This document shows positions 1,788-61,681 of a stretch of DNA of 64,000 nt, piece by piece. The stretch lies in NCBI GenBank assembly GCA_000004985.1, contig GG738863.1; one strand, written 5' to 3'. Under the pieces are notes generated by a model. The model worked only from the letters and a program-made list of their open reading frames with translations. It had not been told where the DNA came from and made no database searches. This stretch comes from Naegleria gruberi (lineage: Eukaryota). The position numbers and the translations under genes are program-made. Every line of letters starts with the position of its first letter. The stretch's first letter is position 1.

Positions 1788-2500
1788 ATGTCTTGAACAA
1801 AGTATTCCACTAATTCATTGTTATCATTTGTAATTGGGAACAAAAAAGTATTAGCGGAAGCATGGATTTTGATACAAAAGGCGCATTAATGAAAAGAATC
1901 GAGTTTTAATACAAAAAACGACAATATTATTTAACGCAAACATTAATAAATTTGCCTTTTATGAAGAAATGGTGAAGCGGAGTTGACAGATTCTTCAGTG
2001 CAATGTCCATATTTTCAATCTATTTGTCCAGATGATATTTTTGAAATATTTTCCCTCGCAACACGATCTATTATCCGAAATTCGAAAACAAACAGAAAAA
2101 ATTATCATCAAGCGCCATTTGATATTCAAACAACCAATTTTACAATAGTATTGGTAGTATTGGAAATTCTTCATTACCGTTCGCTACACTTTTTAAACTG
2201 CCTTTCTTTATTACTGTACAAAACATTCATATTAGAAAGAATTAAAAAAAACGTCGTTATTTGTTAAATCGCCCGCAGCGAGTTCTTCCGAAAACCAAAT
2301 TTACGTTTTTATTATCTTCATCATTGTACGCCGCTGTTGTGCATAAGAATATTATTCTCATCAAACTATTATTGAAAAACAACAGCAACTTTGAAACGCT
2401 CTCTAATATTACACCAACATCATCATTACACTATCATTTATTAATATTTATTGTGAAATTATTGAAATACTATAACTACTACACCTTCAACAATTACAGA

Positions 2501-6323: not shown

Positions 6324-6324
6324 A

Positions 6325-6374
6325 NNNNNNNNNNNNNNNNNNNNNNNNNNNNNNNNNNNNNNNNNNNNNNNNNN
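6325..6374. other. assembly gap (50 N)
   Basis: Run of N; interrupts the NHL/GPS gene. Confidence 0.99.
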
Positions 6375-13934: not shown

Positions 13935-14006
13935 GGGACCATGGTCTAGTGGTATGATTCTCGCTTTGGGTGCGAGAGGCCGTGGGTTCGATTCCCACTG
14001 GTCCCC
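13935..14006 (+). tRNA. tRNA-Pro (anticodon UGG)
   Basis: Cloverleaf by hand. The 7-bp acceptor GGGACCA/TGGTCCC pairs, with a D-loop AGTGGTA. The anticodon stem CTCGC/GCGAG carries the loop TTTGGGT, giving anticodon TGG. The T-arm is GTGGG-TTCGATT-CCCAC. Closely resembles canonical eukaryotic tRNA-Pro. Confidence 0.9.
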
Positions 14007-18065: not shown

Positions 18066-18866
18066 GTGGATGAGAAACCATTATTCGAAACCTCATGCTA
18101 TTTACTTGGACTTTCAGATGAGATTTGGTGTGAAATTTTGGAATATTTAAATTTTGATGAATATTTCAATATTGCTCAAGTTTCCAAAGGAATGCACTTT
18201 TATTCGAATCTCAAAGTAGTTTGGAAGAATTTTATTTGTAGATATATTTGTCCAAATGCTCAGCAAGTGCAAACTACTCACTTTCCACAATTGGAGGACA
18301 ATTATAAGGAACTTTTCATGAAATTATACAATAATTGTTGTATTGTGTGTGGAGAATATTTGAGAGGAGATATTAAACTGGATAATCCAGTCTCTTTAGC
18401 TCAATCCAAGGGAGAAATAAGATTGGCTGCTCATCCTGCTTATTATAATTTTCTGGTAGATAATTGTGTTTGCACTTCCTGTCAATCCAATTCACTTGTG
18501 GAGACAATAAGTAAGACTGAATTGAAAAGATTCTACAATGTGAGCGATACTGAATTGTCTGATATGAGATGTATGAAATCACCTAATCCATTCCACAGAT
18601 CAACCCCAATGTTCAAATATTTAATTAGTCAAGCAAAAGTAGTCCACCAAAAGAAGCAAGAGAAAGCTCTATTACTTCTTCATAGCAAATTTAAGAAATT
18701 GAAAATTTCTAAGGGAGCCTATTTTGCTTTGATACAGAGAGGTAAACGAGGTCATTTTGGAAATGATTGTTTGGTTTACTTGGCCTTAACTGGAGACAAA
18801 TCCAATTACAAACAAAAGAAATTGGAGGAATATATTAGAAATTTGATTTTGACTAATCAAGATTAA
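18066..18866 (+). CDS. F-box-like protein with Cys-rich zinc-ribbon-like region; 5' end unresolved
   Basis: F-box-like LLGLSDEIWCEILEYLNFDEYFNIAQVSKGMHF plus CCIVCGEY...CTSCQ. The track start is GTG and there is no in-frame ATG between the upstream stop (17970) and the F-box. Either an upstream exon exists (possibly joined to the zf-PARP gene) or there is an indel. Confidence 0.45.
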   Translation: MDEKPLFETSCYLLGLSDEIWCEILEYLNFDEYFNIAQVSKGMHFYSNLKVVWKNFICRYICPNAQQVQTTHFPQLEDNYKELFMKLYNNCCIVCGEYLRGDIKLDNPVSLAQSKGEIRLAAHPAYYNFLVDNCVCTSCQSNSLVETISKTELKRFYNVSDTELSDMRCMKSPNPFHRSTPMFKYLISQAKVVHQKKQEKALLLLHSKFKKLKISKGAYFALIQRGKRGHFGNDCLVYLALTGDKSNYKQKKLEEYIRNLILTNQD

Positions 18867-19065: not shown

Positions 19066-20349
19066 TTACCCATCCCAATCAGATCCTAAAGCAATATGAT
19101 CCACACCAACCATATTAGCAATATGTTTCATTGTCTTGGCAACTGATTTAAAGCCAAAACCACAAGTAGTAAATTCAAAGAAAGCAATACCCATAACACC
19201 ATTTCTCTTGGCAATTCTTCTTGCCACTTCTTCTGAAATATTTCTTGTATGGTTACAATCACTTTTAACTCCTGTATGTGAGACGATAACTGTTGTATTC
19301 CAAGGTTCAGTCAAATCCAGAACATCCTTCATGTGACTTTCAGAAGCATGAGCCATGTCAATAATCATATTCAAATCAACAACCTTCTTGATTACTTGTT
19401 TACCAAATTCTGAGAGACCATACTTTTCTGATCCATGCAATGATCCACCAACTTGATTATCTGTGAAATGGTTCAATCCAAACATTCTAACTCCCCAATC
19501 ATATAACTTTTGAACATTGTCTAAATTATATTCTAAAACTTGAGCTCCTTCAACGGACAATAATCCAGAGACTAGATTCTTATTGGTCTTTCTTCTCTCC
19601 AAGAAATTTTCAAGATTTCTTTGATTCTTAATAAAGGTAACAAGTCCATTTCCTTCATCTTCATAGGATTGGAGTAATCTACTCATAGCTCTAGCTCTAT
19701 AGAGAGGAGAAAACCAAGCATCCCTTTCATAGAGTTGAGCAAACATCAAGAATGGGAATATGTCAGTATAATTGACATTGTTTTGCATGTTCAATGTGTG
19801 TGGAATTGAATTTACTACAGCAAATGTTTGAAGAGCCATGTTGGACTTTTGCATCTTGGAAAGTGTCACATGTCCCCTAAAATATTATCATCATTCATTC
19901 AGCAACAATCGAATAGTATGTACATCACAACAATACCAGAATTAATTTTCATCAACAATTAAACTGATATAACACAACACCTACATTTCAGATTTCAAGA
20001 AACTACCTCTATGTTTCCACATTAATGTATCCGCATGCAAATCAGCAATAAATGGAATATTCTCATGTACTTGTTGTGCATTCTTATTTTCCAAAACTAA
20101 TAAATCCAAATACTTTTTATCAACTCTATTTGAAATCTTGTCAAATCCATACGGAAAGACAACAAATAGAAAAACCATCGACAAGACACTTCTCAATACA
20201 AAAGATCTGATCAGGGAGGAAACGGATTTCTTACCAATTTTAAATAAAAGGGACATCGGAAAGATTACCACACCAAAGATTACAAGGAACATCATTGATG
20301 TTATCAGTGTTCCTGCCAAACTTTCAAAAAACATTCGATCAGCAGACAT
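19066..20349 (-). CDS. membrane dipeptidase (peptidase M19 / renal dipeptidase family) with N-terminal signal-anchor, 2 exons
   Basis: complement(join(19066..19876,19985..20349)). A 108-nt intron with a GTAGGT donor and TTTTAG acceptor joins ...ADLHADTLMWKHRGSFLKSEM to GHVTLSKMQK.... Conserved M19 motifs present (DLHxDTL, HVxL, DHIALGSDWDG). An N-terminal TM segment is present. Confidence 0.75.
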
Positions 20350-20576: not shown

Positions 20577-22337
20577 CTAAATACTGAAAATATGATTGCT
20601 TGCTCTACACTTTTCAATACATGATTGATAGCGAGATTCATCCTTATTTGATTCCTTCTTGTTTGTAATATCAACATTGTTCAATTCATTGGACATTTCA
20701 TCTGTGATACAAGCAGAGAGACAGGTCATTTGCAAGTCAAACTTCCACTTGACGATTGAGTTCAGCTCTCTAACCAGCCTTGGAAATAATCTGTGTATCA
20801 TACGATATCTAGCTGCGAATGAATTCACCAACTTGATGTGCTGTAAAACTTTTTCAAAATACTTTTTTTCTTCCTCATCTTCAAATATGGATCTTATATT
20901 TCTTCCTTGTCCTATTTTTTCAATTATTCGAATTCTAATAGAATTAAATTGGTTAATTCTGTGACGGACAAAAACTGCCAAATTATGAAATGAATAAAGA
21001 GGAAGTATCAATGAAAAATTAAAGAGTAACAATTCAACCTTTTCGACCAATTCATTCAAACCATCTGCATTAAAATTTAAGAGCTTCAAAGTGGAATAAA
21101 GTCCGTAATTGTGCATCAGCTCAATAGTGGCATGCTTGATTTGTTTTTGAGGATCGGAGAGCTTCTTATTTGCAATCTTGTTATAGAGGAAATCTCTCAC
21201 TGAATATATTAGAGATAATGTAGAAGCTGCATTTTCTAAAGTAATACCATTATTAATAGATTCTGAATCATACTTGTTATCATTGACGTAATGATCATAA
21301 AATTTGGTAAATGATTTCCCAACAAACTTTGAATTTTCTAAATCATCATCCCCAATTGATATATGAGCCTCTCCTTTTGAAGCAATCATTTTGAATTTAA
21401 GTTTGTTTACATCATCCAAATATGGATCGTTTTCAAGGTCCTTGATATAGTTCAAATAATTCCAAGCCATTTCAGTTTGGCCATCGCCAATAGTAAACAT
21501 GGTAAGGAGAACCTTGGAAACCTTTGTACAAAAGTCAACTGGATGAGCCAATGAAGAGTAGTGCACTGACTCTCTAAAGGAATTAAGAGAACGCTCAGTT
21601 TGACTCATCGACTGTTCACACAAACTCTGCACAGCAGAAAGCAGTGTTCTTACAGAGTATTCTTTCTCATATAAATCAACATTCGCCACAATTTCCTCCA
21701 TCTGTTCTCTACTCAAAAAGTCAAAGTTAACATCCACAAAGTCAAAAAAGTAATTAACAATAGCATGATGAATGTTTCCTTTCACCAAGTTTCTCTCCCT
21801 TGTCAAGTATGTTTGTTGTTGTTTTGAGAGATAGGGATGGAATCCGTTAGTTGTTGCTCTCTTTGCTTCCTTGTTTGTTGTTGCTGATGGAGCAATTATT
21901 GCCAATTTCTTCTTCTTTGAATTGTTGTTGTTAGACATATTTACAGTTGTTATTATTGTAGAGGTATTTGTTGGTGATGTTGAAGAAGATGGAGACGATG
22001 ATGAAGAAGAGGAGTTATTACAGTCATTCTTCTTATTTCCTTTAACTCTTCCTCTCTTCTTTGGAGGTATGTATTGACAAGGTCGTTTTCTCATGATACA
22101 TTCAGAACACGATGGTTTGATACGATCACAAGCAAGGTGAGACTTTCTACAGCCTGAGCAAGCAATTTTAGCAAACTGACTCTCCAATTCATCCTTGCCA
22201 CTACTACTATTATCACTATTACTACTACTATTAATCACTTCAACAACAACACCTTGTTCTTCTTCTATTGGTTGGTTACCATTGTCCTCTCCGATATTTT
22301 CCAATTCTGCAATAAATTCATCAAAGATTTGATCCAT
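20577..22337 (-). CDS. Zn(II)2Cys6 (GAL4-type) zinc-cluster transcription factor
   Basis: Perfect C-x2-C-x6-C-x6-C-x2-C-x6-C motif (CSGCRKSHLACDRIKPSCSECIMRKRPC) followed by a basic stretch and S/N-rich linker. The track start 22352 is TTG; the first ATG is at 22337 (MDQIFDEF). Confidence 0.65.
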   Translation of the reverse strand: MDQIFDEFIAELENIGEDNGNQPIEEEQGVVVEVINSSSNSDNSSSGKDELESQFAKIACSGCRKSHLACDRIKPSCSECIMRKRPCQYIPPKKRGRVKGNKKNDCNNSSSSSSSPSSSTSPTNTSTIITTVNMSNNNNSKKKKLAIIAPSATTNKEAKRATTNGFHPYLSKQQQTYLTRERNLVKGNIHHAIVNYFFDFVDVNFDFLSREQMEEIVANVDLYEKEYSVRTLLSAVQSLCEQSMSQTERSLNSFRESVHYSSLAHPVDFCTKVSKVLLTMFTIGDGQTEMAWNYLNYIKDLENDPYLDDVNKLKFKMIASKGEAHISIGDDDLENSKFVGKSFTKFYDHYVNDNKYDSESINNGITLENAASTLSLIYSVRDFLYNKIANKKLSDPQKQIKHATIELMHNYGLYSTLKLLNFNADGLNELVEKVELLLFNFSLILPLYSFHNLAVFVRHRINQFNSIRIRIIEKIGQGRNIRSIFEDEEEKKYFEKVLQHIKLVNSFAARYRMIHRLFPRLVRELNSIVKWKFDLQMTCLSACITDEMSNELNNVDITNKKESNKDESRYQSCIEKCRASNHIFSI

Positions 22338-22597
22338 TCTATCTAATATCAATGACCAATCTTTTTTTACTTTTATCTCATGAATGTTGTCTCTTTACTC
22401 GCACTACATGCTTGAGGAAGGTGAAGTACAGATGTGGATTAATTTTTGCGCACGAGGAATTATTTCATCCAACAATTTTTTATTGTTTGATTTGGCGCCA
22501 CAAAAACGACCCAGCACAACGTCTTTTAGAAATTTGGATAAAAAAACAAATTATTTATTAACAAGCAAAGGAAGATGATAGGAGAGAAAGGAATTTA

Positions 22598-25500
22598 TTA
22601 ATTAATGGATAAAGGTTTGCATTGTTGGATAAATTCATAGAGTGGATAATATCTAACAATGGAATTACTAGCAGTCAAGGTATGAGCAACAACCTTAATA
22701 CAATATCCTCTATAGTACAATTCTGGATCACACAACAAGTAGAATTTGGCTTTACAATAGTCTCCGTTACCTTCCCACAAGAGAGTTTCTTCCATATTGG
22801 AGTGTTCAAATCTAAATCTCAATTGACCCAAATCATATGTCTTTTTAGCTTCACCTTCTTTGATTCCACTGTTGAAGAGAACAATTCCTTCATTGCCAGA
22901 ATCTAATTTAACTCCAACAAATGATTGCTCTCTATTAATAATATCACTACATTCATCAAAGAAGTCATTATCTCTCAAGTATGATTTGGTTTTAAATTCT
23001 TGAGGAGTAACAATTCCACTCAATTCTGGAGTCATGTAAACAATTTCCATTGATTTGGATTGATTAAGTGAGTCAGTAAAGCTGAATCTAAAAGTGCATG
23101 GATATGGTAAATCATATGGTGTCATATGAAGGGCTCTATAAGACTTTGGACAAATTCCTTGATAATCAACAGCAGCCTTGATGAGATACTCCTTGCTTGT
23201 TGATCCTGAACTGAGATTGATAGTTTTACCCCAAACATATTGACCTTGGGTTTCACTCTTTCTAACTACAAATTCAACATCTCTACCAAAGTTTGTAGAG
23301 GTAGCAGTGGCAACAGTTGCAGCTTCCCAATAGGCAGCTTCAACACCACCAAATGCTTTCCAAGTTGTTCCATCATGATCCAAATATTCAAGTTTCATGG
23401 AGGTAATTGAAATTGGTGAGTTCAATTTGTTTGTGAAACGGAGATTGATCAATTCCAAAATTATTTCTTTTCTAGAACCGACAATGGCAATAGATGTATA
23501 GGAGCTTCTTTCACTTAAGTTTTTAGAGGTAGCACAATCTGGCAAGACAATGGAGATTGAACTTGAACCAACAGCAACAGGATCGACCAAGAGAGAACGA
23601 TCATTTACGAGTTGCTTAAGTGGTCCCATTCCTTCAGTGACAGGGGTGAATTTTTCTTGAATAACTTTGGAATAATACTTCTCCAAACCTTGTAAGTCTT
23701 TGATATTGGTTGGCTTGGCATTATGAGAAGCACAGCCATGGTGAGTTTCTTCCTCTTCTGGTTCATCAGCAAGTGGTTGTAAAGCAACTCTTTCAGAAAT
23801 TTCGTGAGTTGGATTCTTCTTCTTGTGAACTTTGGCGTCACGTTCACACAAACCAACACCGCAAGTCTTACAATCCATGAGTGAATCAACATTTTCTTCT
23901 AAATCTTCTAAACAAACTTTACAATATTTAGTTTGTTCATGCAATTCAATCAACTTGTTGTGAGCTTCAATATTTTTCAACTTTTCTTGTAATTTGTACT
24001 TTTTGATATCACCATTAACTGGAAGAAGAGCTCCAGTTCTTGTTTCAGCAGGAACAAATTCACCAAATCCATAAACTCTAAAAGTACCCAATAATAAGAG
24101 ATTAGAAGTTTCGAATTTCCAGTATCTAGCCTTGAAGCCAGTTGAACTTTCATCAATTTCAAATCTATTCAAATATGGATATGGTTTGGATTCTTCAATA
24201 GTCTTATCGAAACTAATCCAAGGTTCAGTTTCTCTAATTCTGTAATACACTCTAATATCTGAGCAGAAATTGGTTTGGGTTTTTTCATTGTACAATGCAT
24301 GAGTATAATATTCAATATATTTGAAGAAGTGAATATTAGTATAACTTAAAATCAAAGTACCAAATGGTGAACAGATACCATATTCAGCAGAATCATCCAA
24401 AATACCTTTTTGATTATTTTCAGCTCTATCATAGGTATTAAATTTGGTTGCTTGTTTAGGTGTTTTGGTTTCATCATCTTCTCTTCCAATCATCATATCA
24501 TTTGGAACTAAACAATTGATTTCACTACCTCTGTATGGAGTCATGTGAATTGCTTCTTGTTGATCTCTAGAGAGGAGTAAACCCTTTGTAGTATTATATG
24601 GAACAAATGGAGCAACAGCAAAGAATTGAAGCATACCAAATGAAAAGTCACCACAAATTCTTTCAAATTTCCAGAATCTAGCAGTAATACCTTCATCACC
24701 ATTAAACTTCCAAATATTGAGTTTTGGCCAGTGGTAATACTTTTGATCAAAAGTATCAACTTTAGTCCAGGCATCACCTTCTTGAACCTTATAGTACAAA
24801 TTCAAACGGTGACGAAGCTCATCATCAAACTTGATAGTCTTTTGCTTCTTGAATTCCAAATATTTGAAAAGATGAACAGCTTCAAATTCAAGAACCATAT
24901 AGTTATGAACAGATTGACCTATAGCACATCCAGCCACTCCTGAATCATCAATAATACCTTCAATAGTGTTATTGGCTCTATTATTATTCTTTGATGAATA
25001 GAGTTTGATTGGAGCAACTACGTTAACATCTGGACATGTACTTTCAGTATAGATTGGATCAACAAGATTTGCTGGAGCAAGTTTTGGAATATCTGAGTGG
25101 TCATTTCTAATTGTTTCAATCTTGACTTCACCACTGTAGTCAGCATTACCAATCTTAAAGTTTTGAACTGGAGCCATAGCATAAAATTTGAGCATACCAA
25201 CTGCTAAAGTACCAGTCAATCCAGAGTGTGGAGTTTGTACAAAACGGAAATATCTAGCTCTATGTCCACATTCTCCAAAATCTACCATTAAAACACCTTG
25301 GACACTTGTCTTGATTTCTGTAATATGCTGCAAAGTAACCCATGGATCTCTACTTCTCATCTTGTATTCAAGTGAAACACCAACAATTGAAGAGGTTTGA
25401 GTTCTACCCCAACCATCTACTTTTTCAAATTGTTTACCATTAGGATGTTCTCTAAATGCCAAAACTCTGAAATTGTAAACACGTTCAAATGCAACTTCAA

Positions 25501-28468
25501 TAAATGATGAAGTACCATCATTTGTGGCAAAACCTGGTTTTCCATCTGATCTTAATAAATCATCAATAACTTTTGGATCAGTCTTGGTACGTCTATTAGT
25601 ACTGTGATACATAGCATGAGGTTTGATCAAGTTAATTTGATCACAACCTGGGAATGGATCCTTCAATTGTTCTTCAATTAATTCTGGTGGGAGAATTGGA
25701 CCACTCTTTGTTTCAATTGGAACAAATGGAGAATAACCAAAAGCTCTAAACATACCAATTTCAATACAACTGCTATAAGCAACCAATCTCAAATACTTGG
25801 CCTTGATTGGTTGTGGTAAAGTGATAGTATTTACGAGAGGAGTAATTTGAATTTGATTTTCTTCAATAGTAGTCAACAAGGTCCAAGTTTCAGAATCCTT
25901 CAACTTGTACTCAATTTTAGTATCTTTGAGATAATAAACTGGGTTGCTGACAGTTGTCAAAGTCATGTACTCAAAGTGGGTAAATAAGTAAACATGCTCA
26001 TATTCAAATTCAATTTCCTTATGATTAGAAGTAGTGACATAGCCAAAATCACCAGTATCATCTAATAAACCTTCCAATGTATTTTCACGTCTGGATTCTC
26101 CCTTGGAATTAAGTTTCTTGATTGGAATAAGATTAATTTCTGGACCAGTATATTTTGGTTCCCATTGAGCAAGAGCTTCCTTCACTGATAAAATAATACC
26201 ACTCTTAGTTTGAATTGGTACATAATCACAATAACCAAATAATCTAATCATACCAAAGAAGAGATAATCACGATCTTCCTTGAAGAATCTCCAATATCTT
26301 GCTTTGATTGGTGTATTGAATTGAATAGTATTGACTTGAGGATTGGTTTTGATTTCACTTCTCTTTAATTGAACAGCAAGTGTCCATGAATCTGATTCCT
26401 TAACTTTGTATTCAATTTTAACATTATCTAAACTACTTAATTGCATAGATTCTCCCAATTTACTTGTCTTAAATTCCATATAAGTGAATAAATAGACGGC
26501 ACCATATTTGATTTCAATAAATTGGTTAGAATTATTACCTGTACAAACACCCAATTTACCAGAATCATCAAATAATCCTTCTAAAGTATTATCACCCCAA
26601 CTGTCCTTTGAAGATTGCTTCATTTCAAGAGGAGGGATACAGTTGATATCACCTGAAGTAAATTTAGGTTCATCAGAAACTGTTGGTACAACAACTTGTT
26701 GAGCTACTACTGGTTGTTGAACAACTTGTGGTTGAGGAGTGGAAACAACAGGTGTTTGTGTTACTACTGGAGTAGATGTTACCGGTTGAGAAACTACTGG
26801 AGTGGTTGTTGTTTGTTGAACAACTGGAGTAGATGTAACAACAGGTTGTGAAGATCCAGGAACATAAGGTTGAACTGTACCTGACTTGGTCTTGTGAGCA
26901 ATATATGGAGCATAACCATACATTCTCAACATACCGTAGAACAAGTGGGTCCATTGCTTGAAAAATCTCCAATATTTAGCCTTGATAGGTGTTGTAAAAT
27001 TGATGGTATTGAGCTCTGGATTGAACTTGATATCTGACTTTTCAAGAGTCTTTAACTTGGTCCATTCATCACTTTCCTTAACCTTGTATTCAATTGTTGA
27101 ATCTTGAAGATAGTAGGTTTGATTTCCTTCACCCAATTTGCAAGCTTTAAACTCCAAGAATGTGAACAAGTAAACTTGATCGAAAATCAATCTAATTTCA
27201 GAGCTACCATTTGTTGTACAAGCACCAAATTTACCAGAATCATCCAATAATCCTTCAATGGTGTTATCTCCCCAACTATCTTTGCCAGACATTTTCAATT
27301 CAACTGGAGCAATGACACTAACTTCACCAGATGTATATTTTGGTTCATCTTGAGAAACAGCAACAGGAGGTGTCTGTGTAACTACTGGAGTTACAGTTTG
27401 TTGTTGAGAAACTACAGGAGTGGTTGTAGCTGGTTGAGTGACAACAGGTTCAGATACAACAGAAGATGGTGAAACATATCTAGAAACAACTCCTGAAAGT
27501 GTCTTGATTTCAGTATATGGATGATAAGCAAATAATTTCAACATTCCAAAGAATAATTGGACGAAACCATTTCCCAATTTTGTAAATCTGAAAGTTCTTG
27601 CTTTGACTGGTGTATCAAAATGGATAAATGTACTTTCTGGATTGAGCTTAATATCAGATTTACTGATTTCTCTCAATGGAATCCATTCTTGACTTTCGAA
27701 TTGTTTATATTCGATTAAAGTATCTTGTAATAAACCATATTGATTAATTTCTCCCAATCTATTTGTCTTGAATTCGAGTAATGTGAAAAGGTAAACTCTA
27801 TCAAAAGTGAGAACAATATTCTGCTTCAATCCATTTGAAGTACAAGCACCATGCTTTCCAGTTTCGTCTAATAATCCTTCAATGGTGTTATTTCCCCAAC
27901 TATCCTTAGTGGATAATACCAATTTTGATGGAGCAATTACACTGATTTCACCTTCTGTATATGGTGGTTCATCTAAATTCTCAGCAACAGTAACTTCTTG
28001 TACATTGGAAACTTGAACAATCTCACCAGTCTTTGTCTTTATATTCACAGCAGGAGCATCACTAGCTCTCAACCACAATCTACCAAAAGCCACATGATGA
28101 GTTCCAAATTTATCAAATTTGAAATAACGAGCTGCACATCCCAATTGCACTTTTTGAATGCCGTGTCCTTCTCTGAATGAATAAATTTCCTTCCACGGAT
28201 CACTTTCATTGGAACGACAATAAATATCAACACCCTTTAATCTCTGTTGATCATCGTAATACTTCTTGTTGGAGGTACATTCGAGAGTGGTAAATTGATA
28301 AACTCTATCAAATTTCAACTCTACACAAGGTTTGTTGATAAAATCTGTGGAACAACCATAATCACCAGATTCGTCCAATAAACCTTCAATGGTATTATCT
28401 GACTTTTTACATAAATTATGCACTATCAATTCTGTTGGTGCAACAATAAAACCCTCGCTACTGGACAT
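22598..28468 (-). CDS. giant (1956 aa) protein: eight tandem ~250-aa beta-sandwich (discoidin/galactose-binding-like) repeats separated by T/P/V/Q-rich linkers, then coiled coil, B-box-like zinc finger and a C-terminal domain
   Basis: Single 5.87-kb ORF, ATG confirmed. The repeat core ...SWG(N/D)NTIEGLLD(E/D)(T/S)GK.GACT.NG...VYLFT.LEFK...G...KA(R/K)YWRF... occurs 8 times. A B-box-like CKVCLEDLEENVDSLMDCKTCGVGLCERDAKVHKKKNPTH follows a predicted coiled coil. Confidence 0.7.
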   Translation of the reverse strand: MSSSEGFIVAPTELIVHNLCKKSDNTIEGLLDESGDYGCSTDFINKPCVELKFDRVYQFTTLECTSNKKYYDDQQRLKGVDIYCRSNESDPWKEIYSFREGHGIQKVQLGCAARYFKFDKFGTHHVAFGRLWLRASDAPAVNIKTKTGEIVQVSNVQEVTVAENLDEPPYTEGEISVIAPSKLVLSTKDSWGNNTIEGLLDETGKHGACTSNGLKQNIVLTFDRVYLFTLLEFKTNRLGEINQYGLLQDTLIEYKQFESQEWIPLREISKSDIKLNPESTFIHFDTPVKARTFRFTKLGNGFVQLFFGMLKLFAYHPYTEIKTLSGVVSRYVSPSSVVSEPVVTQPATTTPVVSQQQTVTPVVTQTPPVAVSQDEPKYTSGEVSVIAPVELKMSGKDSWGDNTIEGLLDDSGKFGACTTNGSSEIRLIFDQVYLFTFLEFKACKLGEGNQTYYLQDSTIEYKVKESDEWTKLKTLEKSDIKFNPELNTINFTTPIKAKYWRFFKQWTHLFYGMLRMYGYAPYIAHKTKSGTVQPYVPGSSQPVVTSTPVVQQTTTTPVVSQPVTSTPVVTQTPVVSTPQPQVVQQPVVAQQVVVPTVSDEPKFTSGDINCIPPLEMKQSSKDSWGDNTLEGLFDDSGKLGVCTGNNSNQFIEIKYGAVYLFTYMEFKTSKLGESMQLSSLDNVKIEYKVKESDSWTLAVQLKRSEIKTNPQVNTIQFNTPIKARYWRFFKEDRDYLFFGMIRLFGYCDYVPIQTKSGIILSVKEALAQWEPKYTGPEINLIPIKKLNSKGESRRENTLEGLLDDTGDFGYVTTSNHKEIEFEYEHVYLFTHFEYMTLTTVSNPVYYLKDTKIEYKLKDSETWTLLTTIEENQIQITPLVNTITLPQPIKAKYLRLVAYSSCIEIGMFRAFGYSPFVPIETKSGPILPPELIEEQLKDPFPGCDQINLIKPHAMYHSTNRRTKTDPKVIDDLLRSDGKPGFATNDGTSSFIEVAFERVYNFRVLAFREHPNGKQFEKVDGWGRTQTSSIVGVSLEYKMRSRDPWVTLQHITEIKTSVQGVLMVDFGECGHRARYFRFVQTPHSGLTGTLAVGMLKFYAMAPVQNFKIGNADYSGEVKIETIRNDHSDIPKLAPANLVDPIYTESTCPDVNVVAPIKLYSSKNNNRANNTIEGIIDDSGVAGCAIGQSVHNYMVLEFEAVHLFKYLEFKKQKTIKFDDELRHRLNLYYKVQEGDAWTKVDTFDQKYYHWPKLNIWKFNGDEGITARFWKFERICGDFSFGMLQFFAVAPFVPYNTTKGLLLSRDQQEAIHMTPYRGSEINCLVPNDMMIGREDDETKTPKQATKFNTYDRAENNQKGILDDSAEYGICSPFGTLILSYTNIHFFKYIEYYTHALYNEKTQTNFCSDIRVYYRIRETEPWISFDKTIEESKPYPYLNRFEIDESSTGFKARYWKFETSNLLLLGTFRVYGFGEFVPAETRTGALLPVNGDIKKYKLQEKLKNIEAHNKLIELHEQTKYCKVCLEDLEENVDSLMDCKTCGVGLCERDAKVHKKKNPTHEISERVALQPLADEPEEEETHHGCASHNAKPTNIKDLQGLEKYYSKVIQEKFTPVTEGMGPLKQLVNDRSLLVDPVAVGSSSISIVLPDCATSKNLSERSSYTSIAIVGSRKEIILELINLRFTNKLNSPISITSMKLEYLDHDGTTWKAFGGVEAAYWEAATVATATSTNFGRDVEFVVRKSETQGQYVWGKTINLSSGSTSKEYLIKAAVDYQGICPKSYRALHMTPYDLPYPCTFRFSFTDSLNQSKSMEIVYMTPELSGIVTPQEFKTKSYLRDNDFFDECSDIINREQSFVGVKLDSGNEGIVLFNSGIKEGEAKKTYDLGQLRFRFEHSNMEETLLWEGNGDYCKAKFYLLCDPELYYRGYCIKVVAHTLTASNSIVRYYPLYEFIQQCKPLSIN

Positions 28469-29507: not shown

Positions 29508-30915
29508 ATGCCATCAACAACCACTTCATCATCAAAAGCAAGTTCCTCCACTTCATCAAACACTTCATCAAATACTTCGGGAAAGAAGATTTCACCTGCT
29601 TCTTCATCGTCATCTGGGACAACAAGAGAGAAAACTGCTTCATCAAGAAAGGGAGAATCAACAAGTACTGATTTTTCTACCCTTATAAAAACCAATCCAA
29701 AACTTTCTGCCAAACCAATTACCAATAAGGATGGAGATGATATAACAGAATATTTTGATGAAACTAATGTTTTGAATGCCAAGATTGAACATTTAGTCAA
29801 TCTCATAAATCAATCCAAACATATTGTATTATATACAGGTGCTGGTATCAGTAGAGCAGCAGGTATTAGAGATTACAGATCTCCTAATGGTATGTTTACA
29901 ATAATTCTTTTCATGGAAATTAATTAAATTTCTGATAGGTGTTTGGACTATGAAAGAAAAGGGAGTAAAAACTGTAGCAAAGAAGGATGAATCAAAGATA
30001 ATCTTCCCAACTCGTACTCACATGGCTATTTCTACATTATACAATGCTGGAAAGATTCAATATGTAACTTCTCAAAATGTTGACGGATTGCATGTTAAAT
30101 CAGGAATTCCAAGAAAGAATATGAGTGAATTGCATGGTAATACCAATGTTGAGATTTGTCACAAATGTAACATAGAATATGTCCGTAATTTTAGATGTAG
30201 AAATAACAAGAATGTTCACGACCACAGGACTGGAAGATTCTGTGAAAAGTGTAAAAGTGAATTGGAAGATACAATTATTAATTTCAATGAAAATTTACCA
30301 ACTGATCAATTGGAAAGAGCAGAGGAGAATGCTTCCAAGGCTGACCTGGCTATTGTCGTAGGAACAAGTATGAGAGTTAATCCTGCATGTTCCCTTCCAC
30401 AGATGTGTAAAGAAAATGGAGGAAAATTAGTCATTATCAATCTCCAATTAACTCCAAAAGACAAGAAGGCAGATTTGAGAATTTTTGCAGAAGCTGACAA
30501 GGTTATTGATACGGTAATGAAAAAGCTGGCTTTGGAAATACCTCCATTCATTCTAGAAACTGAATATTCATTAGAAAGCTTTGAAAGTGTCAATCCAACA
30601 AGTGAGAAAAAGTTAATTGGATTCAAAATTACTAGTCCATCTCCTTTAGGACCAATGGGTTCAAAGGTATTGAGATCAATCAGCCTAAAGGTTCACGGCT
30701 CAAAAGTAGTGAGCTTTAAGGATACTATGATGCTCGATCCAATTCCATCCGATTGTACAAAGATATCAGCAGTACTGAAGTATAATCTGAATTCAATTGA
30801 TGAGAAGGAAGCCAAATGCACTATTGAACTGGAAAATCCACTGAACATTACTTCGAAATCCTTTGCTTTAAAGGTGAACACATCAACCAATGAAATTACA
30901 GTTACAGAAAAGTAA
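29508..30915 (+). CDS. sirtuin (Sir2 family, class IV SIRT6/7-like NAD-dependent deacylase/ADP-ribosyltransferase), 2 exons
   Basis: join(29508..29889,29939..30915). A 49-nt intron (GTATGT...GATAG) splits ...YTGAGISRAAGIRDYRSPNG|VWT.... Conserved GAGIS, QNVDGLH, HG and a Zn-binding CHKC...CEKC module are present. N-terminal S-rich extension. Confidence 0.8.
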
Positions 30916-31128: not shown

Positions 31129-32985
31129 ATGATTTGGGTGTGGTTGTTAACAGCATGCATTGGATACCTTTCATTTGTTGCTCTGAAAATTTATTTAAAT
31201 TACAGAAAGGTGGCACACATTCCTGGACATTGGCAAATTGTTTCGCTTTTTTGGAGAGTGCCAATTATTTCTCCCTATTTACACATGAATAATCAACGTT
31301 CAGTGACTGAGTTGATGGAAAAGTATGGTGATAAGGAGAGTGGTATTACTAGAATGTCACTAATGGATAGAAATATGGTCATTATTAATGATAAGGATCT
31401 GTTAAAGGAAGTTATCATTACAAAGGGATCAATCTTTACAAAATTCACAGAAGTTTATGAAGTTTTCAAAGTGTTTGGAGAGAATATCTTGACAGTTTTG
31501 GATGCTTCTTCAGATTCATGGAAAAATCATCACAAGATATGTTCGCCTGCATTCACAACTCAGAATTTGCAATATTTGTGTGAATATGCTGCCAAGTCTG
31601 TAGAAAAATTATTCGAATCTAGATGGGAGAAACAAAAGGGAGATCATACTCTCAAGAATGGAGAAAATTATCAAGATGCTTATTTGACAAGTGACATTAA
31701 GGGTGATTTCAGTGATGTCACATTGGATATATTGGGTCAAGTTGGTTTCGGTTTGGATTTTGAAATTTTCAAGGAAAAAACAGGAACTTTATCCGAAGGT
31801 CAACAATTCAGAAAGAGTTTGGAAGTTTTATTCACTACAGGAATCTTTGTAAAATTATTTATTGGAATGAGTAAGGTGTGGAAGTTTTTATATCCATTTG
31901 CTCAAAAATTATTCAAGGTTGATGTTGCTTATAACATTGTCAGTTCTAAATTGGACGAAATCCTCAAGGAAAGAACCAAAGAAATTGAATTAGCTTATGC
32001 CAACTCTGGAGAAATTCAAACTGGAGAAAGAAGAGACTTGTTGAGTTGTCTCATTGAGGCCAACTATGTTCAAAAGGGAGTTTTGACTGAGGATGAAGTT
32101 AAATCAGATGCATTCATCTTTTCGCTTGCTGGGTTTGTATTCAAATTTTAAAACTATTTTTCCTAATTTTATTGAAATAGACATGAGGTGAGTTTTTGCA
32201 AATTTACAATTTTTTGTAATGATGAATTTTTTATTTGAAATTTTAGACAACTTGTAAGTTTCGATTAATATTTGATTTTTGTTAACATGAGTGATAGCTA
32301 CTACATTACAGGTAAGTTTTCAATGAAAATTCAAGAAAATTCGAATAATATTAAGTGGACTTGTTACGAACTTGGTAAAAGACCTGAAATACTCAAGAAA
32401 GCTCAAGAAGAAGTTGATCGCATACTTGAGAATGGATCAAGAATTGCAACCTATGATGATTTCCCTAAAATGAACTATCTCAACATGATCATTATGGAAA
32501 GTCTCAGAGTTCATCCTCCTGTCAGTGCTGCCTATAGAGTTGCCAAAAAGGCAACCACCATTGGAAAGTATCACATTCCAAAAGATACAATTATTCAAAT
32601 GGAATTTGCTAACACTCATTGGAATGAAAAATTCTGGGAACAAGCCAATGAATATAATCCAGAACGATTCCCAACTGATTTTGAGGATAGACAAAAGATT
32701 CACAGCGATTTCACATGGGTTCCATTCTCAATGGGAAATAGAAAATGTGTAAGTATGACAGTTTTAGTTTATAATAATGATTTGCCTTAATAGATTGGCT
32801 ATAAATTTGCTCAATATGAAGCCTTTGCCATCATGTCACGACTTTTACAATTATACGATATTAAATTGGTCAATGATGAGAGACTTCCTGAAGATCAAGT
32901 GACTGAAGAAAAGGGTCCAACTGTCGGCCCAGGAAATTTACATTTGATTTTCAAGAGAAGATCATCTGTGAATGCATCTCAATAA
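31129..32985 (+). CDS. microsomal cytochrome P450 monooxygenase, multi-exon
   Basis: Proposed join(31129..32132,32181..32187,32247..32253,32312..32748,32794..32985). N-terminal TM anchor, ExxR (ESLRVHPP), PERF-like (NPERFP) and heme loop FSMGNRKC|IGYKFAQ, the latter split by a 45-nt GTAAGT...AATAG intron. The I-helix AGHETT motif appears to be assembled from two 7-nt micro-exons (uncertain). Confidence 0.75.
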
Positions 32986-33048: not shown

Positions 33049-34295
33049 ATGGAACAACACAAAACCAGTTCCATCACCAGTAATAATAATAATTTTTCAA
33101 ATGCTGATCACGAGCACGAACATTCGGAAGTAACAAAAGAAAATCAATTATCAATTTTCGACCAAGTATTGAATGATGATATTTTCCGAATTGTTCTTTC
33201 GTTTTTAAATGTTTCAGAATTGATGATTCTGGCAATTGTTTCTAAAAAATTGAGAATTGGTCAGCTCTCATCAGAAGACTATTTATGGAAGGAATATTAT
33301 GTGAATAGAGTGAAGGTACTCAATGATAATTTCAAAAATCAGTACAGATATCAATTATTGAGGAAAGTCGATAACACCAATTTATTTGAAAAGTATTTAC
33401 GTTTTGATTGTGATTTTAAGAAACATTTAATTGAACTGGGAGCTGAAATGGCATTGAAATCTGAGCAAGATTATAAAAAGAGAACAGAATATATTGAAAA
33501 ATTAAAACAGCTTGAGTATGGGAGAGTGGGCTTTCATACACGAGAGGAAATTCTTGCATGTGATTTGAAAATCAAATATTTACAACCTCAGTACAAAATC
33601 ATTCAAATTGGTAAGTTTTGTTTTTGAAATATTCAACTCAATTTGGATTTAAAGGTGATCAAGCTGTGGGAAAGACCAGTATTTACATGCGAATGCAGAA
33701 TTATGAGATGCCAACAGAGTATACACCAACTGTTTTTGACAATTTTAGTGACACCTATAAATACATAGATAGAAACACAATTAATCTGCACTATTGGGAT
33801 ACTGCTATTCATGAAGGTAAGTTTTCTAATTCAATACATATATTAGAAGTAATTGCAAGATGTGGATCAGTAAGTTGTTTTCTTTGTAACAATATTGACA
33901 CCAATCAAAAAAGATTCAGGATTTTTAGAATTTTCCCTGGTGTAGAGTTATTTCTTTTGAGTTTCAGTTGTGGATCTGATTCTAGTATGGAAAGTTTGAT
34001 ATCAAAGTGGTTTCCTGAATGTATTAAATATTGCCCAAATATTATTCTGGTTTGCACCAAAACTGATTTGAGAAATGAAAAAACCTTTTGTAAGAGATTA
34101 ACTGAGAAATTTCAAAGAAAGCCAATTGGATTCGAACAAGGAGAGCTACTTGCAAGAAAAATGGGATGTATTACCTATTTGGAAACCAGCTCTTTTAACA
34201 ATGAAGGTATCAAAGATTTGACTGAAATTATTGCCAAATCTATTGTGATAGCTTCAAATTCAACTCTGAAACAAAAGAAATGCATGCTGCAATAG
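33049..34295 (+). CDS. F-box-like N-terminal domain fused to an atypical (predicted GTPase-deficient) Rho-family GTPase with C-terminal CaaX (CMLQ)
   Basis: join(33049..33610,33655..33816[,33847..34295 or read-through]). A 44-nt GTAAGT intron joins ...KIIQIG|DQAVGKTS (P-loop, with G12-equivalent Gln). Switch II reads WDTAIHE (His at the catalytic Gln61 position). Also ILVCTKTDLR, IGFEQGELLARKMGCITYLETS, CMLQ end. N-terminus has the F-box-like IFDQVLNDDIFRIVLSFLNVSEL. Confidence 0.6.
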
Positions 34296-40621: not shown

Positions 40622-42442
40622 TTACACTTCAAATTGACTTGCCCAATCAATGACGTTTTCTAATAATTCAATAATAGTCTTTTCTTCGTCTGACATTTCT
40701 TCTTCTTGAATATAGTCGTGGACAAGGTCTAATGTACTTGGAATGTTCTTTGTATTACTGAGTTGCATAATGTATAAAAGTAAGCCGTAGAGAGTTGTAT
40801 CACTCAGTGAACTGTAATCAGTAACTTGATTACAAATTTCAACAATCTTTTTGTGGAAGTTTACGAGAGTATCAAGAGTGGCATAGGGTGTCTTTCCAAT
40901 ATTTAAATTATCTAAAATAATAATGGCAGGTTCAAACAAGTCGGCTGATCTCAGTATTCCCTCATCATCCACTCCTAAATCATCAAATGTCACTGGACCA
41001 ATATCTTCCAACTTTCCTTCAATTTCCTTGTTTTGATTTTGAGTTTCATAGACTTCGACAAGAGTTCTATATACACGTTTCATGACACCCTCAGCAAATG
41101 CTTTGGTAATGTAATGTCTCAATTCCATACTTTGAAGTGAGCTCCAATATTGTTCAAGCGAGTTGACTATTGCTGTTGCAAGGTCAGCAATTTGTTTGTT
41201 TGCCTCTCCTACATTAAGCCAGGCTGTATCCTCTTGTTTTTGGAATTCAGCATTGAATTTCTGAGTAAAATGAATTAATAGATTATTAATTGGATGTTGG
41301 GAGACTTGATCTGCAATTTCAGAAATGTGTGAACGAATCATGGCCCATTGATCTTCAGGGGATTCTGTCAATGATAATTCTCTATCAAAGAGCTCATCCC
41401 TAGTCTTGAAAGTTCTCTCCTTTGTATAGATTGAAACGAATTTGGATGATACAAGCTTATTCCAAGGATTACCATCCGATCCATCAAAAGTTGTAGATTC
41501 TCCATCCCAGGCCTCTCCCAATTTGATACTCTTTCTCTTCTCCGAAGGATCAACACCAAATGTTGAAACATCAGAAAGTGAAACAGAAGCACGGTTTCTT
41601 GCCGAATCGAGAGGAGAATTAATTCTTGGAGTGATTGCTCCTGGAGGAGGTTGGAACTCAATAACAGGTCCAGAAAGTTGAACAGAAGATCTATTAGACA
41701 TTGTTCCTAAAGGTGGTTGAATTGCCGATTGTAAAGAGTCTCTTCCATAAGAGCTTGTTGATTGTCTAAGTGTTGATTGAATGATTGGTGAGTTTGAAAG
41801 TTGTGGCGAGATTGTTGGTGATGAATTATTGGAAATATTTGGTTGCAAGTTTGTTGATGGAAGCGAAGGTGCTGATGGATTAGTACTGCCATTACTGAAT
41901 GGCATGTTGTTACTGATTGGAGGAGGTGTATTGAAAGTCATAGATGATCTCAATGAATTGACATCACTAGGTGTGTTGCTTGTTGTTGAAGTAATGGAAG
42001 ATCTATTGGAGAAATGGAAGGATGAATTCATAGAGGTTGGTATTTGTTGTAAAGATGATGAAGATGAAGAATTGAAACCACTACTTGGTATATTAATCAT
42101 TGAAGTTGATAGATTTGAATTTCCGGTAACTCCAATACCAAATGAATTATTAGGAGTCAAAGTATTGCCACCTGAAGAAGAATTTGGTATTTCCTTGTCC
42201 ACAATATCGGAAACTCTTTCAAAGCACATTTTACAAATCTTTAAAGCTTGAGAAACTTGTTTAAATGTTTGTGCATTTGATTTCAATTCCTCTGCCAAGT
42301 TATCTTCCTTCAATAATTGTCCAAGTGAAAGCATACAAGCACCATATTGCTTCAGTGCTTCACTAAAATTACGTTGTTCATCTCTTTTAATTGCTTCACT
42401 ACTTTTCAATTTGATAGAGTGAATATTAAATTGATTCACCAT
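40622..42442 (-). CDS. hypothetical protein: N-terminal MIT-like helical region, long S/N/T-rich linker, conserved ~270-aa C-terminal domain (possibly VPS9/RUN-like, unverified)
   Basis: ATG confirmed. 606 aa. No catalytic motif recognised. Confidence 0.45.
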   Translation of the reverse strand: MVNQFNIHSIKLKSSEAIKRDEQRNFSEALKQYGACMLSLGQLLKEDNLAEELKSNAQTFKQVSQALKICKMCFERVSDIVDKEIPNSSSGGNTLTPNNSFGIGVTGNSNLSTSMINIPSSGFNSSSSSSLQQIPTSMNSSFHFSNRSSITSTTSNTPSDVNSLRSSMTFNTPPPISNNMPFSNGSTNPSAPSLPSTNLQPNISNNSSPTISPQLSNSPIIQSTLRQSTSSYGRDSLQSAIQPPLGTMSNRSSVQLSGPVIEFQPPPGAITPRINSPLDSARNRASVSLSDVSTFGVDPSEKRKSIKLGEAWDGESTTFDGSDGNPWNKLVSSKFVSIYTKERTFKTRDELFDRELSLTESPEDQWAMIRSHISEIADQVSQHPINNLLIHFTQKFNAEFQKQEDTAWLNVGEANKQIADLATAIVNSLEQYWSSLQSMELRHYITKAFAEGVMKRVYRTLVEVYETQNQNKEIEGKLEDIGPVTFDDLGVDDEGILRSADLFEPAIIILDNLNIGKTPYATLDTLVNFHKKIVEICNQVTDYSSLSDTTLYGLLLYIMQLSNTKNIPSTLDLVHDYIQEEEMSDEEKTIIELLENVIDWASQFEV

Positions 42443-51389: not shown

Positions 51390-51725
51390 GTATTGGAATA
51401 GCTTACAAGGTTGAAATTACTTCATTGCAATTAAATGACAGATGACATTAATAAACTTTCACGTTTTTCTATGCTAATATTAAGTGATGTTATGTTTCAT
51501 TTCACTTATATTTGACTCATTCATCAATTAGATTGCCAAGTTTTATCAAGCGATGTTAATTGTTTCATTTCACTAATGTAACCTTCTTGTTTTACCATGA
51601 TGATGACAATGATGCTGTAATTACAGAAGAGTTTTTTACATTTATCCTAAATCCACAAGCACTTGGAACTTATTGGTCAACTTGCTTTTCGAAATGGTAT
51701 TCATGGAAACACAACATTGAAAAAA

Positions 51726-61226: not shown

Positions 61227-61681
61227 TTTTTTCTGGTTGATCAAAGCCTTAAAATTTGGCGGGAAAATAGTTCTTTCATTTTTGAGTGAATAAACAATTG
61301 ATTCAAAATCAGATTTTCATTACAAACTCTCTTGATGGTGTCATTATTTTGCCAAGAGACCATTTTGATGTACATCAATATTCGATTGACAGTCAAAACA
61401 TGAATTTATTGATGTTGAATTCACTTCAAAAATTGGCGCCTAACAAAATTTTTCAACTCAAAAAAAAAACTTAACAACACTCTCTGCATACATAGTTTCG
61501 CTTCAGAGTTTCATCCTTTTCCTCTGTATAAACAGTACTCTCAGATTCTGTTGATACCAATAATACGTGTATACTTCTCCGGTTGTGAGACTACAAATAG
61601 TAGAAGAGCAAGAGAAGAATTTTTACAAACTCTATTTAAATATATTAATATATATAATAACATAGCCACAACAGACCACAT

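What the first reader, a model, noticed from the sequence alone, without database searches (positions are those of the whole stretch)
22598..28468. 1956-aa protein with 8 tandem beta-sandwich repeats preceding a coiled coil and B-box: an 'inverted TRIM-like' architecture
A single intronless 5.9-kb ORF has eight repeats of a ~250-aa module with conserved W/G/C/Y positions and a ...KA(R/K)YWRF... strand, resembling discoidin/galactose-binding-like domains. After the repeats come a coiled coil, a B-box-like zinc finger (CKVC...CKTCGVGLC...H...H) and an unassigned C-terminal domain. B-box plus coiled coil normally sit N-terminal to substrate-binding domains (TRIM), so here the order is reversed and the putative ligand-binding part is an octad. 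Linkers are T/P/V/Q-rich (mucin-like), which is odd for a cytosolic zinc-finger protein.
Basis: partly seen in the sequence, partly recalled or inferred. Interest (0 to 1): 0.55.

Follow-up and report, generated by a model that had tools for sequence, protein, structure and literature searches.

The report
Naegleria eight-discoidin protein with B-box finger
This is a real 1956-residue protein of the amoeba Naegleria gruberi, made of eight discoidin (sugar-binding-type) domains, one B-box-type zinc finger and an uncharacterised tail domain known only from Naegleria's relatives; it is an unusual domain combination, not a reversed TRIM ubiquitin ligase.

Summary
The ORF at 22598..28468(-) is the annotated single-exon Naegleria gruberi protein XP_002678164 ([quoted passage not shown]).

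- **Repeats:** there are eight homologous F5/8-type-C (discoidin, CBM32-like) domains. The period is 165-225 aa, not 250.
- **"Coiled coil":** this is one helix of about 28 aa, placed before the finger.
- **C-terminal 370 aa:** a confidently modelled beta-rich domain with no Pfam family. All named members of the family come from Heterolobosea.
- **TRIM reading:** there is no RING, no B-box2 and no long coiled coil. Two N. gruberi paralogues lack the helix-plus-finger module. "Inverted TRIM" is therefore not supported.
- **Location:** no homologue has a signal peptide, and the partner domains seen elsewhere in the family are intracellular types.

Most likely it is a cytosolic, multivalent ligand-binding scaffold. 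Its function is inferred, not shown. Interest is moderate to low.

The parts
22598..28468 (-). Whole single-exon gene (1956 codons plus stop), N. gruberi XP_002678164
28019..28468 (-). Discoidin repeat R1 (aa 1-150). It starts at the initiator Met, with no signal peptide.
   Evidence: repeat HMM 180 bits; alignment; hydropathy
27479..27973 (-). Discoidin repeat R2 (aa 166-330)
   Evidence: Pfam F5_F8_type_C 1.7e-4
27350..27478 (-). V/T/S/P/Q-rich flexible linker 1 (aa 331-373)
   Evidence: composition
26864..27349 (-). Discoidin repeat R3 (aa 374-535), a duplication specific to this gene. It is 58-59% identical to R2 and R4 and has no positional counterpart in the paralogue or in N. lovaniensis.
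26678..26863 (-). V/T/Q/P-rich flexible linker 2 (aa 536-597). It contains a weak 18-bp tandem repeat at 26696-26734.
26189..26677 (-). Discoidin repeat R4 (aa 598-760)
   Evidence: Pfam F5_F8_type_C 4.1e-7, above the gathering score
25685..26173 (-). Discoidin repeat R5 (aa 766-928)
   Evidence: Pfam F5_F8_type_C 8.5e-8, above the gathering score
25133..25675 (-). Divergent discoidin repeat R6 (aa 932-1112)
   Evidence: no Pfam hit alone, but 183 bits to the repeat HMM and shared motifs
24569..25072 (-). Divergent discoidin repeat R7 (aa 1133-1300)
24023..24559 (-). Divergent discoidin repeat R8 (aa 1304-1482), with a 15-aa insertion near its start
23930..24013 (-).
   Evidence: AF2 helix at model residues 12-37 with low pLDDT; 7 aa shorter in N. 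lovaniensis
23804..23923 (-). B-box type-1-like zinc finger (aa 1516-1555): C-x2-C-x13-C-x2-C-x4-C-x2-D-x3-H-x6-H
23708..23803 (-). Acidic, poorly conserved linker (aa 1556-1587)
   Evidence: pLDDT below 50; gapped alignment
22601..23707 (-). C-terminal beta-rich domain (aa 1588-1956). It has no Pfam family, and named members come only from Heterolobosea.

Best explanation
The gene encodes a large, probably cytosolic, modular binding protein specific to Naegleria.

**Parts and their likely roles**
- **Ligand-binding array (inferred).** Eight discoidin domains (F5/8 type C, CBM32-like), each conserved at its own position, form a multivalent array. The ligands are most likely glycans or glycolipids.
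- **Hinges.** One or two flexible T/P/V/Q hinges separate the N-terminal pair R1-R2 (plus the extra R3 here) from a tightly linked block R4-R8.
- **Self-association or partner docking (inferred).** A short helix plus a B-box1-type zinc finger follows the array. By analogy with other B-boxes it would mediate self-association or partner docking.
- **Family-defining tail.** A 370-aa beta-rich C-terminal domain known only from Heterolobosea defines the family. It is presumably the effector or anchoring module.

**Shown:** the domain identities, their order, conservation across three Naegleria species, the absence of a signal peptide or TM segment, and the accessory nature of the B-box.

**Inferred:** cytosolic location, carbohydrate-type ligands, and oligomerisation through the B-box.

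It is not a TRIM-type E3 ligase.
For: **Discoidin repeats**
- Pfam F5_F8_type_C scores 5.8e-24, and R2-R5 hit individually.
- The repeat profile's best solved relative is the CBM32 sugar-binding module of C. perfringens NagH, 2W1Q, E=9.8e-4.
- Each repeat in the paralogue P0002 and in N. lovaniensis P0003/P0004 is most similar to the repeat at the same position here: 57-82% in P0002 and 40-67% in P0003/P0004, against about 30-58% to the next-best repeat. R3 is the exception, being an extra copy. The repeats are therefore individually maintained, not a homogenised array.

**Zinc finger**
- All 8 ligand positions are invariant in 5 sequences.
- The finger is present in N. gruberi, N. lovaniensis and N. 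fowleri.
- It is 78% identical to N. lovaniensis, against about 50% for the neighbouring domain.
- Best PDB sequence hit: the MID1 B-box1, with ligands aligned.
- AF2 model topology is beta-beta-alpha-beta.
- The nearest homologue is P0029 (tblastn E=1.9e-8). There the finger lies N-terminal to a Pfam-significant zf-B_box, a helical region and NHL repeats.

**Location**
- No signal peptide or TM segment: the maximum Kyte-Doolittle 19-mer average is 1.5.
- All homologues begin directly with the first discoidin domain.
- Distant members pair the C-terminal domain with WD40, the Par3 N-terminal domain or CHORD-like domains, all intracellular types.

**C-terminal domain**
- Modelled at pLDDT 80-95.
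- 35 relatives at E<=1e-3 among 1.84 billion proteins.
- Every relative that carries an organism name is from Heterolobosea.
Against: - No ligand, localisation or expression data exist. A literature search for the accessions found nothing.
- Pfam B-box models hit only below threshold: ANCHR-like_BBOX 0.0076-0.036 and Trim66 B-box 0.021, while FYVE_2 also hits 2 of 5 fingers.
- T/P/V/Q linkers and CBM32-like domains are more typical of extracellular proteins.
- In the Dictyostelium discoidins, glycan binding maps to the H-type lectin domain, not the discoidin domain. That analogy for cytosolic lectin function is therefore imperfect.
- The discoidin repeats themselves were not modelled structurally.
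Confidence: 0.55

Rival explanations
1. It is an extracellular or surface adhesin/lectin exported without a classical signal peptide. The discoidin array would bind bacterial prey, substrate or cyst-wall polysaccharide, and the T/P/V/Q linkers would act as O-glycosylated mucin-like spacers.
For: - The closest solved relative of the repeats is a secreted bacterial CBM32.
- The PT-type linkers resemble those of secreted glycoside hydrolases and mucins.
- Dictyostelium discoidin I also lacks a signal peptide yet reaches the outside (own knowledge, not tested here).
Against: - There is no signal peptide or TM segment in this protein or in any of its homologues.
- It carries a Cys/His zinc finger of an intracellular type.
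- The family's other partner domains (WD40, Par3 N-terminal, CHORD-like) are cytosolic types.
- Only two linkers are PT-rich.
Confidence: 0.2
2. It is an 'inverted TRIM-like' ubiquitin-system component. B-box plus coiled coil would act as in TRIM E3 ligases, with the discoidin octad as the substrate-recognition part (compare the DOC/APC10 jelly-roll domains in E3 ligases).
For: - A B-box1-type finger is present.
- Its closest homologue lies in a TRIM-NHL-like B1-B2-CC-NHL protein.
Against: - No RING, U-box, HECT or F-box was found. Pfam at E<=1 shows only F5_F8_type_C.
- A six-frame pattern scan finds a single cross-brace finger in the whole window.
- There is no B-box2 and no long coiled coil after the finger. 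There is only a helix of about 28 aa before it, and it is shorter in N. lovaniensis.
- The module is missing from paralogues P0002 and P0005 and from all distant family members.
Confidence: 0.07
3. The finger is a different cross-brace zinc finger (FYVE-like, RING-like or ArfGAP-like) rather than a B-box. It would then more likely bind lipid or a small GTPase.
For: - FYVE_2 hits 2 of 5 fingers, best E=7.5e-4. FYVE and C1 also give weak hits.
Against: - The ligand spacing fits the B-box1 pattern, not RING C3HC4 or the FYVE signature motifs. There is no WxxD, R(R/K)HHCR or RVC motif (sequence).
- B-box1 domains are the top hit in both the sequence search and the structure search.
- In P0029 the finger occupies the position of a B-box1.
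Confidence: 0.1

Closest known systems
F5/8 type C (discoidin) / CBM32 carbohydrate-binding modules, e.g. C. perfringens NagH CBM32 (PDB 2W1Q)
   Same: The repeat sequences match Pfam PF00754 and the CBM32 module. They carry the usual N-terminal 'N-x-x-D-G...' type motif and the 'ARY(W/V)R(F/L)' strand.
   Different: Here there are eight copies in one eukaryotic protein without a signal peptide, and no attached catalytic domain. Ligand binding is untested.
B-box type 1 zinc fingers of TRIM proteins (MID1 2FFW, TRIM28 6O5K, PML 2MVW)
   Different: The sixth ligand is Asp and the first loop is 13 residues. The finger stands alone near the C-terminus, without RING, B-box2 or a following coiled coil. 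Pfam scores are sub-threshold.
RING-less TRIM-NHL-like protein P0029 (environmental contig; B1-B2-coiled coil-NHL)
   Same: Its first finger is the closest homologue of the finger here, 44% identical over 43 aa, with the shared motif LC.RDAKVH.KK.PTH.
   Different: Everything else differs. P0029 has a canonical B-box2, a long helical region and NHL repeats, and it has neither discoidin domains nor the C-terminal domain.
Dictyostelium discoidins (cytosolic lectins)
   Same: Both are discoidin-domain proteins of a bacterivorous amoeba that lack a signal peptide. A 2026 preprint shows the Dictyostelium proteins act as cytosolic sensors of bacterial surface glycolipids.
   Different: The Dictyostelium proteins have one discoidin domain plus an H-type lectin domain, and the lectin domain does the binding. 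No H-type lectin domain is present here. There is no detectable orthology.
Adaptor appendage / arrestin-VPS26-type beta-sandwich modules

Membership tests
F5/8 type C (discoidin) domain, Pfam PF00754 | Significant match to the family profile | tested here: met
   The whole protein scores 85.1 bits against a cutoff of 28.2. R4 (30.6 bits) and R5 (32.8 bits) pass the cutoff alone. R2 and R3 score E about 2e-4. R1 and R6-R8 are recognised only through homology to the other repeats.
F5/8 type C (discoidin) domain, Pfam PF00754 | Eight-stranded distorted jelly-roll fold with ligand-binding loops at one end | not tested
   No structure model of a repeat was made. Both prediction jobs went to the C-terminal region and the finger.
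F5/8 type C (discoidin) domain, Pfam PF00754 | Binding of carbohydrate, phospholipid or collagen ligand | not testable with these tools
   Needs glycan or lipid arrays with recombinant repeats.
B-box zinc finger (type 1) | Eight Zn ligands with spacing C-x2-C-x7-12-C-x2-C-x4-C-x2-[CH]-x3-4-H-x4-9-H | tested here: met
   The finger reads C-x2-C-x13-C-x2-C-x4-C-x2-D-x3-H-x6-H, and all eight positions are invariant in 5 sequences. There are two deviations: the first loop is one residue longer, and Asp is the sixth ligand (Asp ligands are known in B-box2; own knowledge).
B-box zinc finger (type 1) | Significant match to a curated B-box profile | tested here: not met
   All hits fall below the gathering scores: ANCHR-like_BBOX E 0.0076-0.036 in 4 of 5 fingers, zf-B_box_Trim66 E 0.021 in 2 of 5, and zf-B_box no hit. 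The profile search against PDB puts MID1 B-box1 first, but at E=0.4.
B-box zinc finger (type 1) | B-box fold (beta-beta-alpha cross-brace) | tested here: met
B-box zinc finger (type 1) | Binds two zinc ions | not testable with these tools
   Needs metal analysis or an experimental structure.
TRIM / RBCC family | N-terminal RING finger | tested here: not met
   There is no RING or U-box Pfam hit at E<=1. The protein has only one cross-brace finger, and the six-frame scan of the window finds no other.
TRIM / RBCC family | B-box2 present (obligatory when only one B-box is present) | tested here: not met
   The single finger has B-box1 spacing and B-box1 top hits.
TRIM / RBCC family | Long (about 100 aa) coiled coil directly after the B-box | tested here: not met
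   The finger is followed by an acidic disordered linker with pLDDT below 50. The only helix is about 26 aa and lies before the finger.
Dictyostelium discoidin I/II lectins | Discoidin domain followed by an H-type lectin domain | tested here: not met
   No H_lectin Pfam hit. The C-terminal domain has no Pfam match.
Heterolobosean C-terminal domain family (undescribed) | Homology to the ~370-aa beta-rich domain with the conserved LP.P...R.....DS and LLCD motifs | tested here: met
   The profile search returned 35 proteins at E<=1e-3 among 1.84 billion. Named members come from N. gruberi, N. lovaniensis, N. fowleri, Willaertia magna, Percolomonas and Pharyngomonas.

The most novel reading that the evidence does not exclude
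The protein is a one-polypeptide cytosolic pattern-recognition device of a bacterivorous amoeba. Eight discoidin domains of differing specificity would read glycans or glycolipids on bacteria, or on damaged phagosome membranes exposed to the cytosol. The B-box1 finger would drive higher-order self-assembly on the target, as B-boxes do in TRIM5alpha and PML. The heterolobosean C-terminal domain would recruit downstream machinery. That would be a fused, independently evolved analogue of the galectin-TRIM16 and Dictyostelium discoidin surveillance systems.
Probability: 0.12. Interest if true: 0.65.

Novelty: new variant of a known kind. Interest (0 to 1): 0.35.

Why it matters
The protein is already in the databases, labelled only by its discoidin domains. 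This analysis adds four things.
- It has a conserved B-box1-type finger outside any TRIM context.
- The real family signature is an undescribed beta-rich domain known only from Heterolobosea. In other members that domain is combined with WD40, Par3 N-terminal or discoidin domains.
- The eight discoidin domains are individually conserved, so they are probably functionally distinct.
- Everything points to an intracellular location.

Intracellular discoidin arrays are unusual. If they bind glycans, they would bear on how free-living and pathogenic Naegleria (the family is present in N. fowleri) sense prey or damaged compartments. Without functional data this remains a lineage-specific architecture of moderate interest.

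Tried and rejected
1. A literature search for the accessions and locus tags found no paper. Searches on Naegleria plus discoidin or B-box found nothing on this protein. The Naegleria genome paper that defined 'AM' genes could not be found in the library, so the 'AM28' label on paralogue P0005 stays unexplained.
2. I tried to fetch the genomic locus of paralogue P0002, to see whether its missing helix-plus-finger is a mis-called intron. It is not on record. The genome-contig collection holds only prokaryotes, so it was not used.
3. The word-indexed homology search with the finger profile returned only P0031.
4. I tested whether the C-terminal domain is a ninth, degenerate discoidin domain, because its motif 'KLEYLDHDGTTW' resembles 'KIEYKVKESDSW'. 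This was rejected: hhalign probability is 1% and only the shared overlap aligns.
5. phmmer of the whole protein and of the finger against PDB gave only chance hits: thiol peroxidase, and the ATP7B metal-binding domain through a CxxC plus acidic stretch.
6. The AFDB Foldseek library was unavailable.
7. Three multi-stretch hits of the C-terminal profile (P0010, P0027, P0028) carry PKD/Ig repeats. I treated them as generic Ig-like similarity, not family members.

Full report
**Origin and reality of the feature**

The window is nuclear DNA of the heterolobosean amoeba Naegleria gruberi.
- The ORF 22598..28468(-) (1956 aa) is 100% identical over its full length to NCBI XP_002678164 / EFC45420 / UniProt D2VCI0. 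The deposited name is 'coagulation factor 5/8 type, C-terminal domain-containing protein'.
- Neighbouring ORFs are eukaryotic genes, some split by short introns: P450 in two pieces, a Ras/Roc GTPase, F-box proteins, Sir2, and a Zn2Cys6 protein.
- At 33-35% GC, a 1956-codon open frame cannot arise by chance.
- The deposited gene model is the same single exon.

**The repeats**
- A repeat HMM finds eight units at aa 1-151, 163-329, 371-533, 596-760, 766-926, 933-1112, 1133-1299 and 1305-1482.
- Pfam assigns F5_F8_type_C to the protein at 5.8e-24. R2-R5 hit individually, and R4 and R5 pass the gathering score.
- R1 and R6-R8 are too divergent for Pfam alone. They align with the others (17-33% identity) and share the NT(I/L)EGLLDDxG and ARY(W/F)(R/K)F motifs.
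- A profile of eleven repeats finds the CBM32 sugar-binding module of Clostridium perfringens NagH (2W1Q) as its closest solved relative, E=9.8e-4.
The module size is 150-180 aa with a period of 165-225 aa, not 250.
- Only two linkers are long and T/P/V/Q-rich (aa 331-373 and 536-597). The remaining repeats are joined by 3-20 residues.

**Repeat history**
- Homologues have different repeat numbers: 8 here, 7 in N. gruberi P0002, 7 and 5 in N. lovaniensis P0003 and P0004, 6 in P0005, 2 in P0007, and 1 in Willaertia P0009.
- The order is conserved. Each repeat of P0002, P0003 and P0004 is most similar to the repeat at the same position here. For example, R2 is 82% identical and R4 76% identical in P0002.
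- R3 has no positional counterpart. It is 58-59% identical to R2 and R4, so it is a duplication specific to this gene that also copied the PT linker.
- The repeats are thus individually maintained and probably not equivalent.

**The zinc finger**
- Residues 1516-1555 read C-x2-C-x13-C-x2-C-x4-C-x2-D-x3-H-x6-H. All eight ligand positions are invariant in five sequences.
- The finger is present in N. gruberi, N. lovaniensis and N. fowleri.
- It is better conserved than its surroundings: 78% identical to P0003, against about 50% for the adjacent domain.
- Pfam gives only sub-threshold hits. ANCHR-like_BBOX hits 4 of 5 fingers (best 0.0076), Trim66 B-box hits 2 of 5, and FYVE_2 hits 2 of 5.
- The profile search of PDB ranks the MID1 B-box1 (2FFW) first, with ligands aligned, but at E=0.4.
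- An AlphaFold model of the finger (mean pLDDT 71, core 82-88) has beta-beta-alpha-beta topology.
- The exhaustive profile search found the nearest homologue of the finger in P0029, which matches the window at tblastn E=1.9e-8. In P0029 the finger lies N-terminal to a Pfam-significant zf-B_box (7.8e-9), a long helical region and NHL repeats. That is the B-box1 position of a RING-less TRIM-NHL-like protein.
- Together these lines support a B-box1-type finger, although no single curated profile reaches significance.

**The 'coiled coil'**
- This is one predicted helix (aa 1487-1512) of low confidence.
- It shows about 2.5-3 heptads of a/d hydrophobics: L1493, L1497, I1500, N1504, I1507 (read).
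- It lies before the finger and is one heptad shorter in N. lovaniensis.
- After the finger comes an acidic disordered linker.

**The C-terminal domain**
- It spans aa 1588-1956 and has no Pfam match even at E<=10.
- With five homologues, AlphaFold models it at pLDDT 80-95 as a helix followed by beta-rich subdomains.
- Foldseek ranks the AP2 beta2-appendage first (E 5.8e-6), followed by factor XIII, arrestin, VPS26 and ARRDC3 lobes. TM-scores are only 0.1-0.2, so there is no global match.
- It is not a ninth discoidin domain: hhalign probability is 1%.
- A profile search of 1.84 billion representatives found 35 relatives.
- Every relative that carries an organism name is heterolobosean: Naegleria spp., Willaertia magna, Percolomonas and Pharyngomonas.
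- In those relatives the domain is combined with one discoidin domain, WD40 repeats, a Par3 N-terminal domain, or a weak CHORD-like match.

**Architecture and the TRIM comparison**
- The conserved core of the family is [discoidin]n + C-terminal domain.
- The helix-plus-finger module is a clean ~95-aa presence/absence. It is present in the query, in both N. lovaniensis proteins and in N. fowleri. It is absent from N. gruberi P0002, P0005 and P0007 and from all distant members.
- P0002 is closer to the query than the N. lovaniensis proteins are in R1, R2, R4, R5, R7 and R8 (62-82% against 53-67% identity; R6 is 57% against 48%). Its lack of the module is therefore probably a secondary loss or a gene-model artefact. 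I could not check the DNA.
- No RING, B-box2 or post-B-box coiled coil is present. The protein fails the defining features of TRIM/RBCC proteins, and 'inverted TRIM' is not an apt description.

**Likely mode of action (inferred)**
- The protein and all its homologues start directly with the first discoidin domain and have no signal peptide or TM segment.
- The finger and the family's other partner domains are intracellular types.
- I therefore favour a cytosolic multivalent binding scaffold. The discoidin array would bind ligands, carbohydrate or glycolipid being the default for CBM32-like domains. The B-box would mediate self-association or partner docking. The C-terminal domain would be the family-specific effector or anchor.
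- A precedent for cytosolic discoidin-family lectins in amoebae exists in Dictyostelium, where discoidins decorate intracellular mycobacteria. [quoted passage not shown]
- The main rival is an unconventionally secreted adhesin, suggested by the PT linkers and the CBM32 affinity.

**Verdict**

The TRIM-like interpretation is not. The protein is a lineage-specific new combination of known domain types plus an undescribed heterolobosean domain. Its function is unknown and was not tested here. Interest is moderate to low.

Noticed in passing
paralogue P0005 (N. gruberi XP_002676469, UniProt D2VHS6), not in the window: This 2132-aa paralogue has six discoidin repeats plus the C-terminal domain, then about 650 aa of low-complexity sequence and a Cyclin_N domain. 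UniProt calls it 'AM28'. It may be a fused gene model. The origin of the AM label (probably the amoeboid-motility gene set of the genome paper; own recollection) could not be verified.
   Followed up: partly
window 20577-22352 (-): The gene immediately downstream of the finding (591-aa ORF) carries a fungal-type Zn(2)-Cys(6) binuclear cluster domain. It scores 23.8 bits against a cutoff of 21, an uncommon transcription-factor type outside fungi.
   Followed up: no
window 31129-32151 (+) and 32272-32790 (+): Two adjacent ORFs match consecutive parts of the cytochrome P450 profile (positions 12-275 and 279-412). This looks like one gene split by a ~120-bp intron.
   Followed up: no
window 18066-18866 (+) and 33049-33627 (+): Two F-box ORFs. 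The first also gives a weak XPA C-terminal-like match (E 1e-3). The second overlaps the start of a Ras/Roc GTPase ORF at 33618-34295.
   Followed up: no
window 19066-19869 (-) and 29950-30915 (+): The M19 membrane dipeptidase ORF begins at profile position 86, and the Sir2 ORF begins at profile position 55. Both are probably missing an upstream exon; small ORFs lie at 19981-20349(-) and 29508-29927(+).
   Followed up: no
window 6320-8992 (+): An 890-aa ORF with a Teneurin-NHL-like beta-propeller match (1.9e-8). No B-box pattern accompanies it anywhere in the window.
   Followed up: partly
window 13935-14006 (+): A single tRNA-Pro(TGG) gene.
   Followed up: no
window 40622-42442 (-) and 59721-61244 (-): A VPS9-domain ORF (Rab5 GEF type) and a leucine-rich-repeat ORF. 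Several other long ORFs (2261-4438, 48876-51389, 51663-53588, 55601-57385) have no Pfam match at E<=1e-4.
   Followed up: no
P0029 (environmental ENA contig, 3051 bp): A RING-less B-box1-B-box2-coiled-coil-NHL protein whose first finger shares the motif LC.RDAKVH.KK.PTH with the Naegleria finger. The source organism is unknown, though it is presumably a heterolobosean or another protist.
   Followed up: partly
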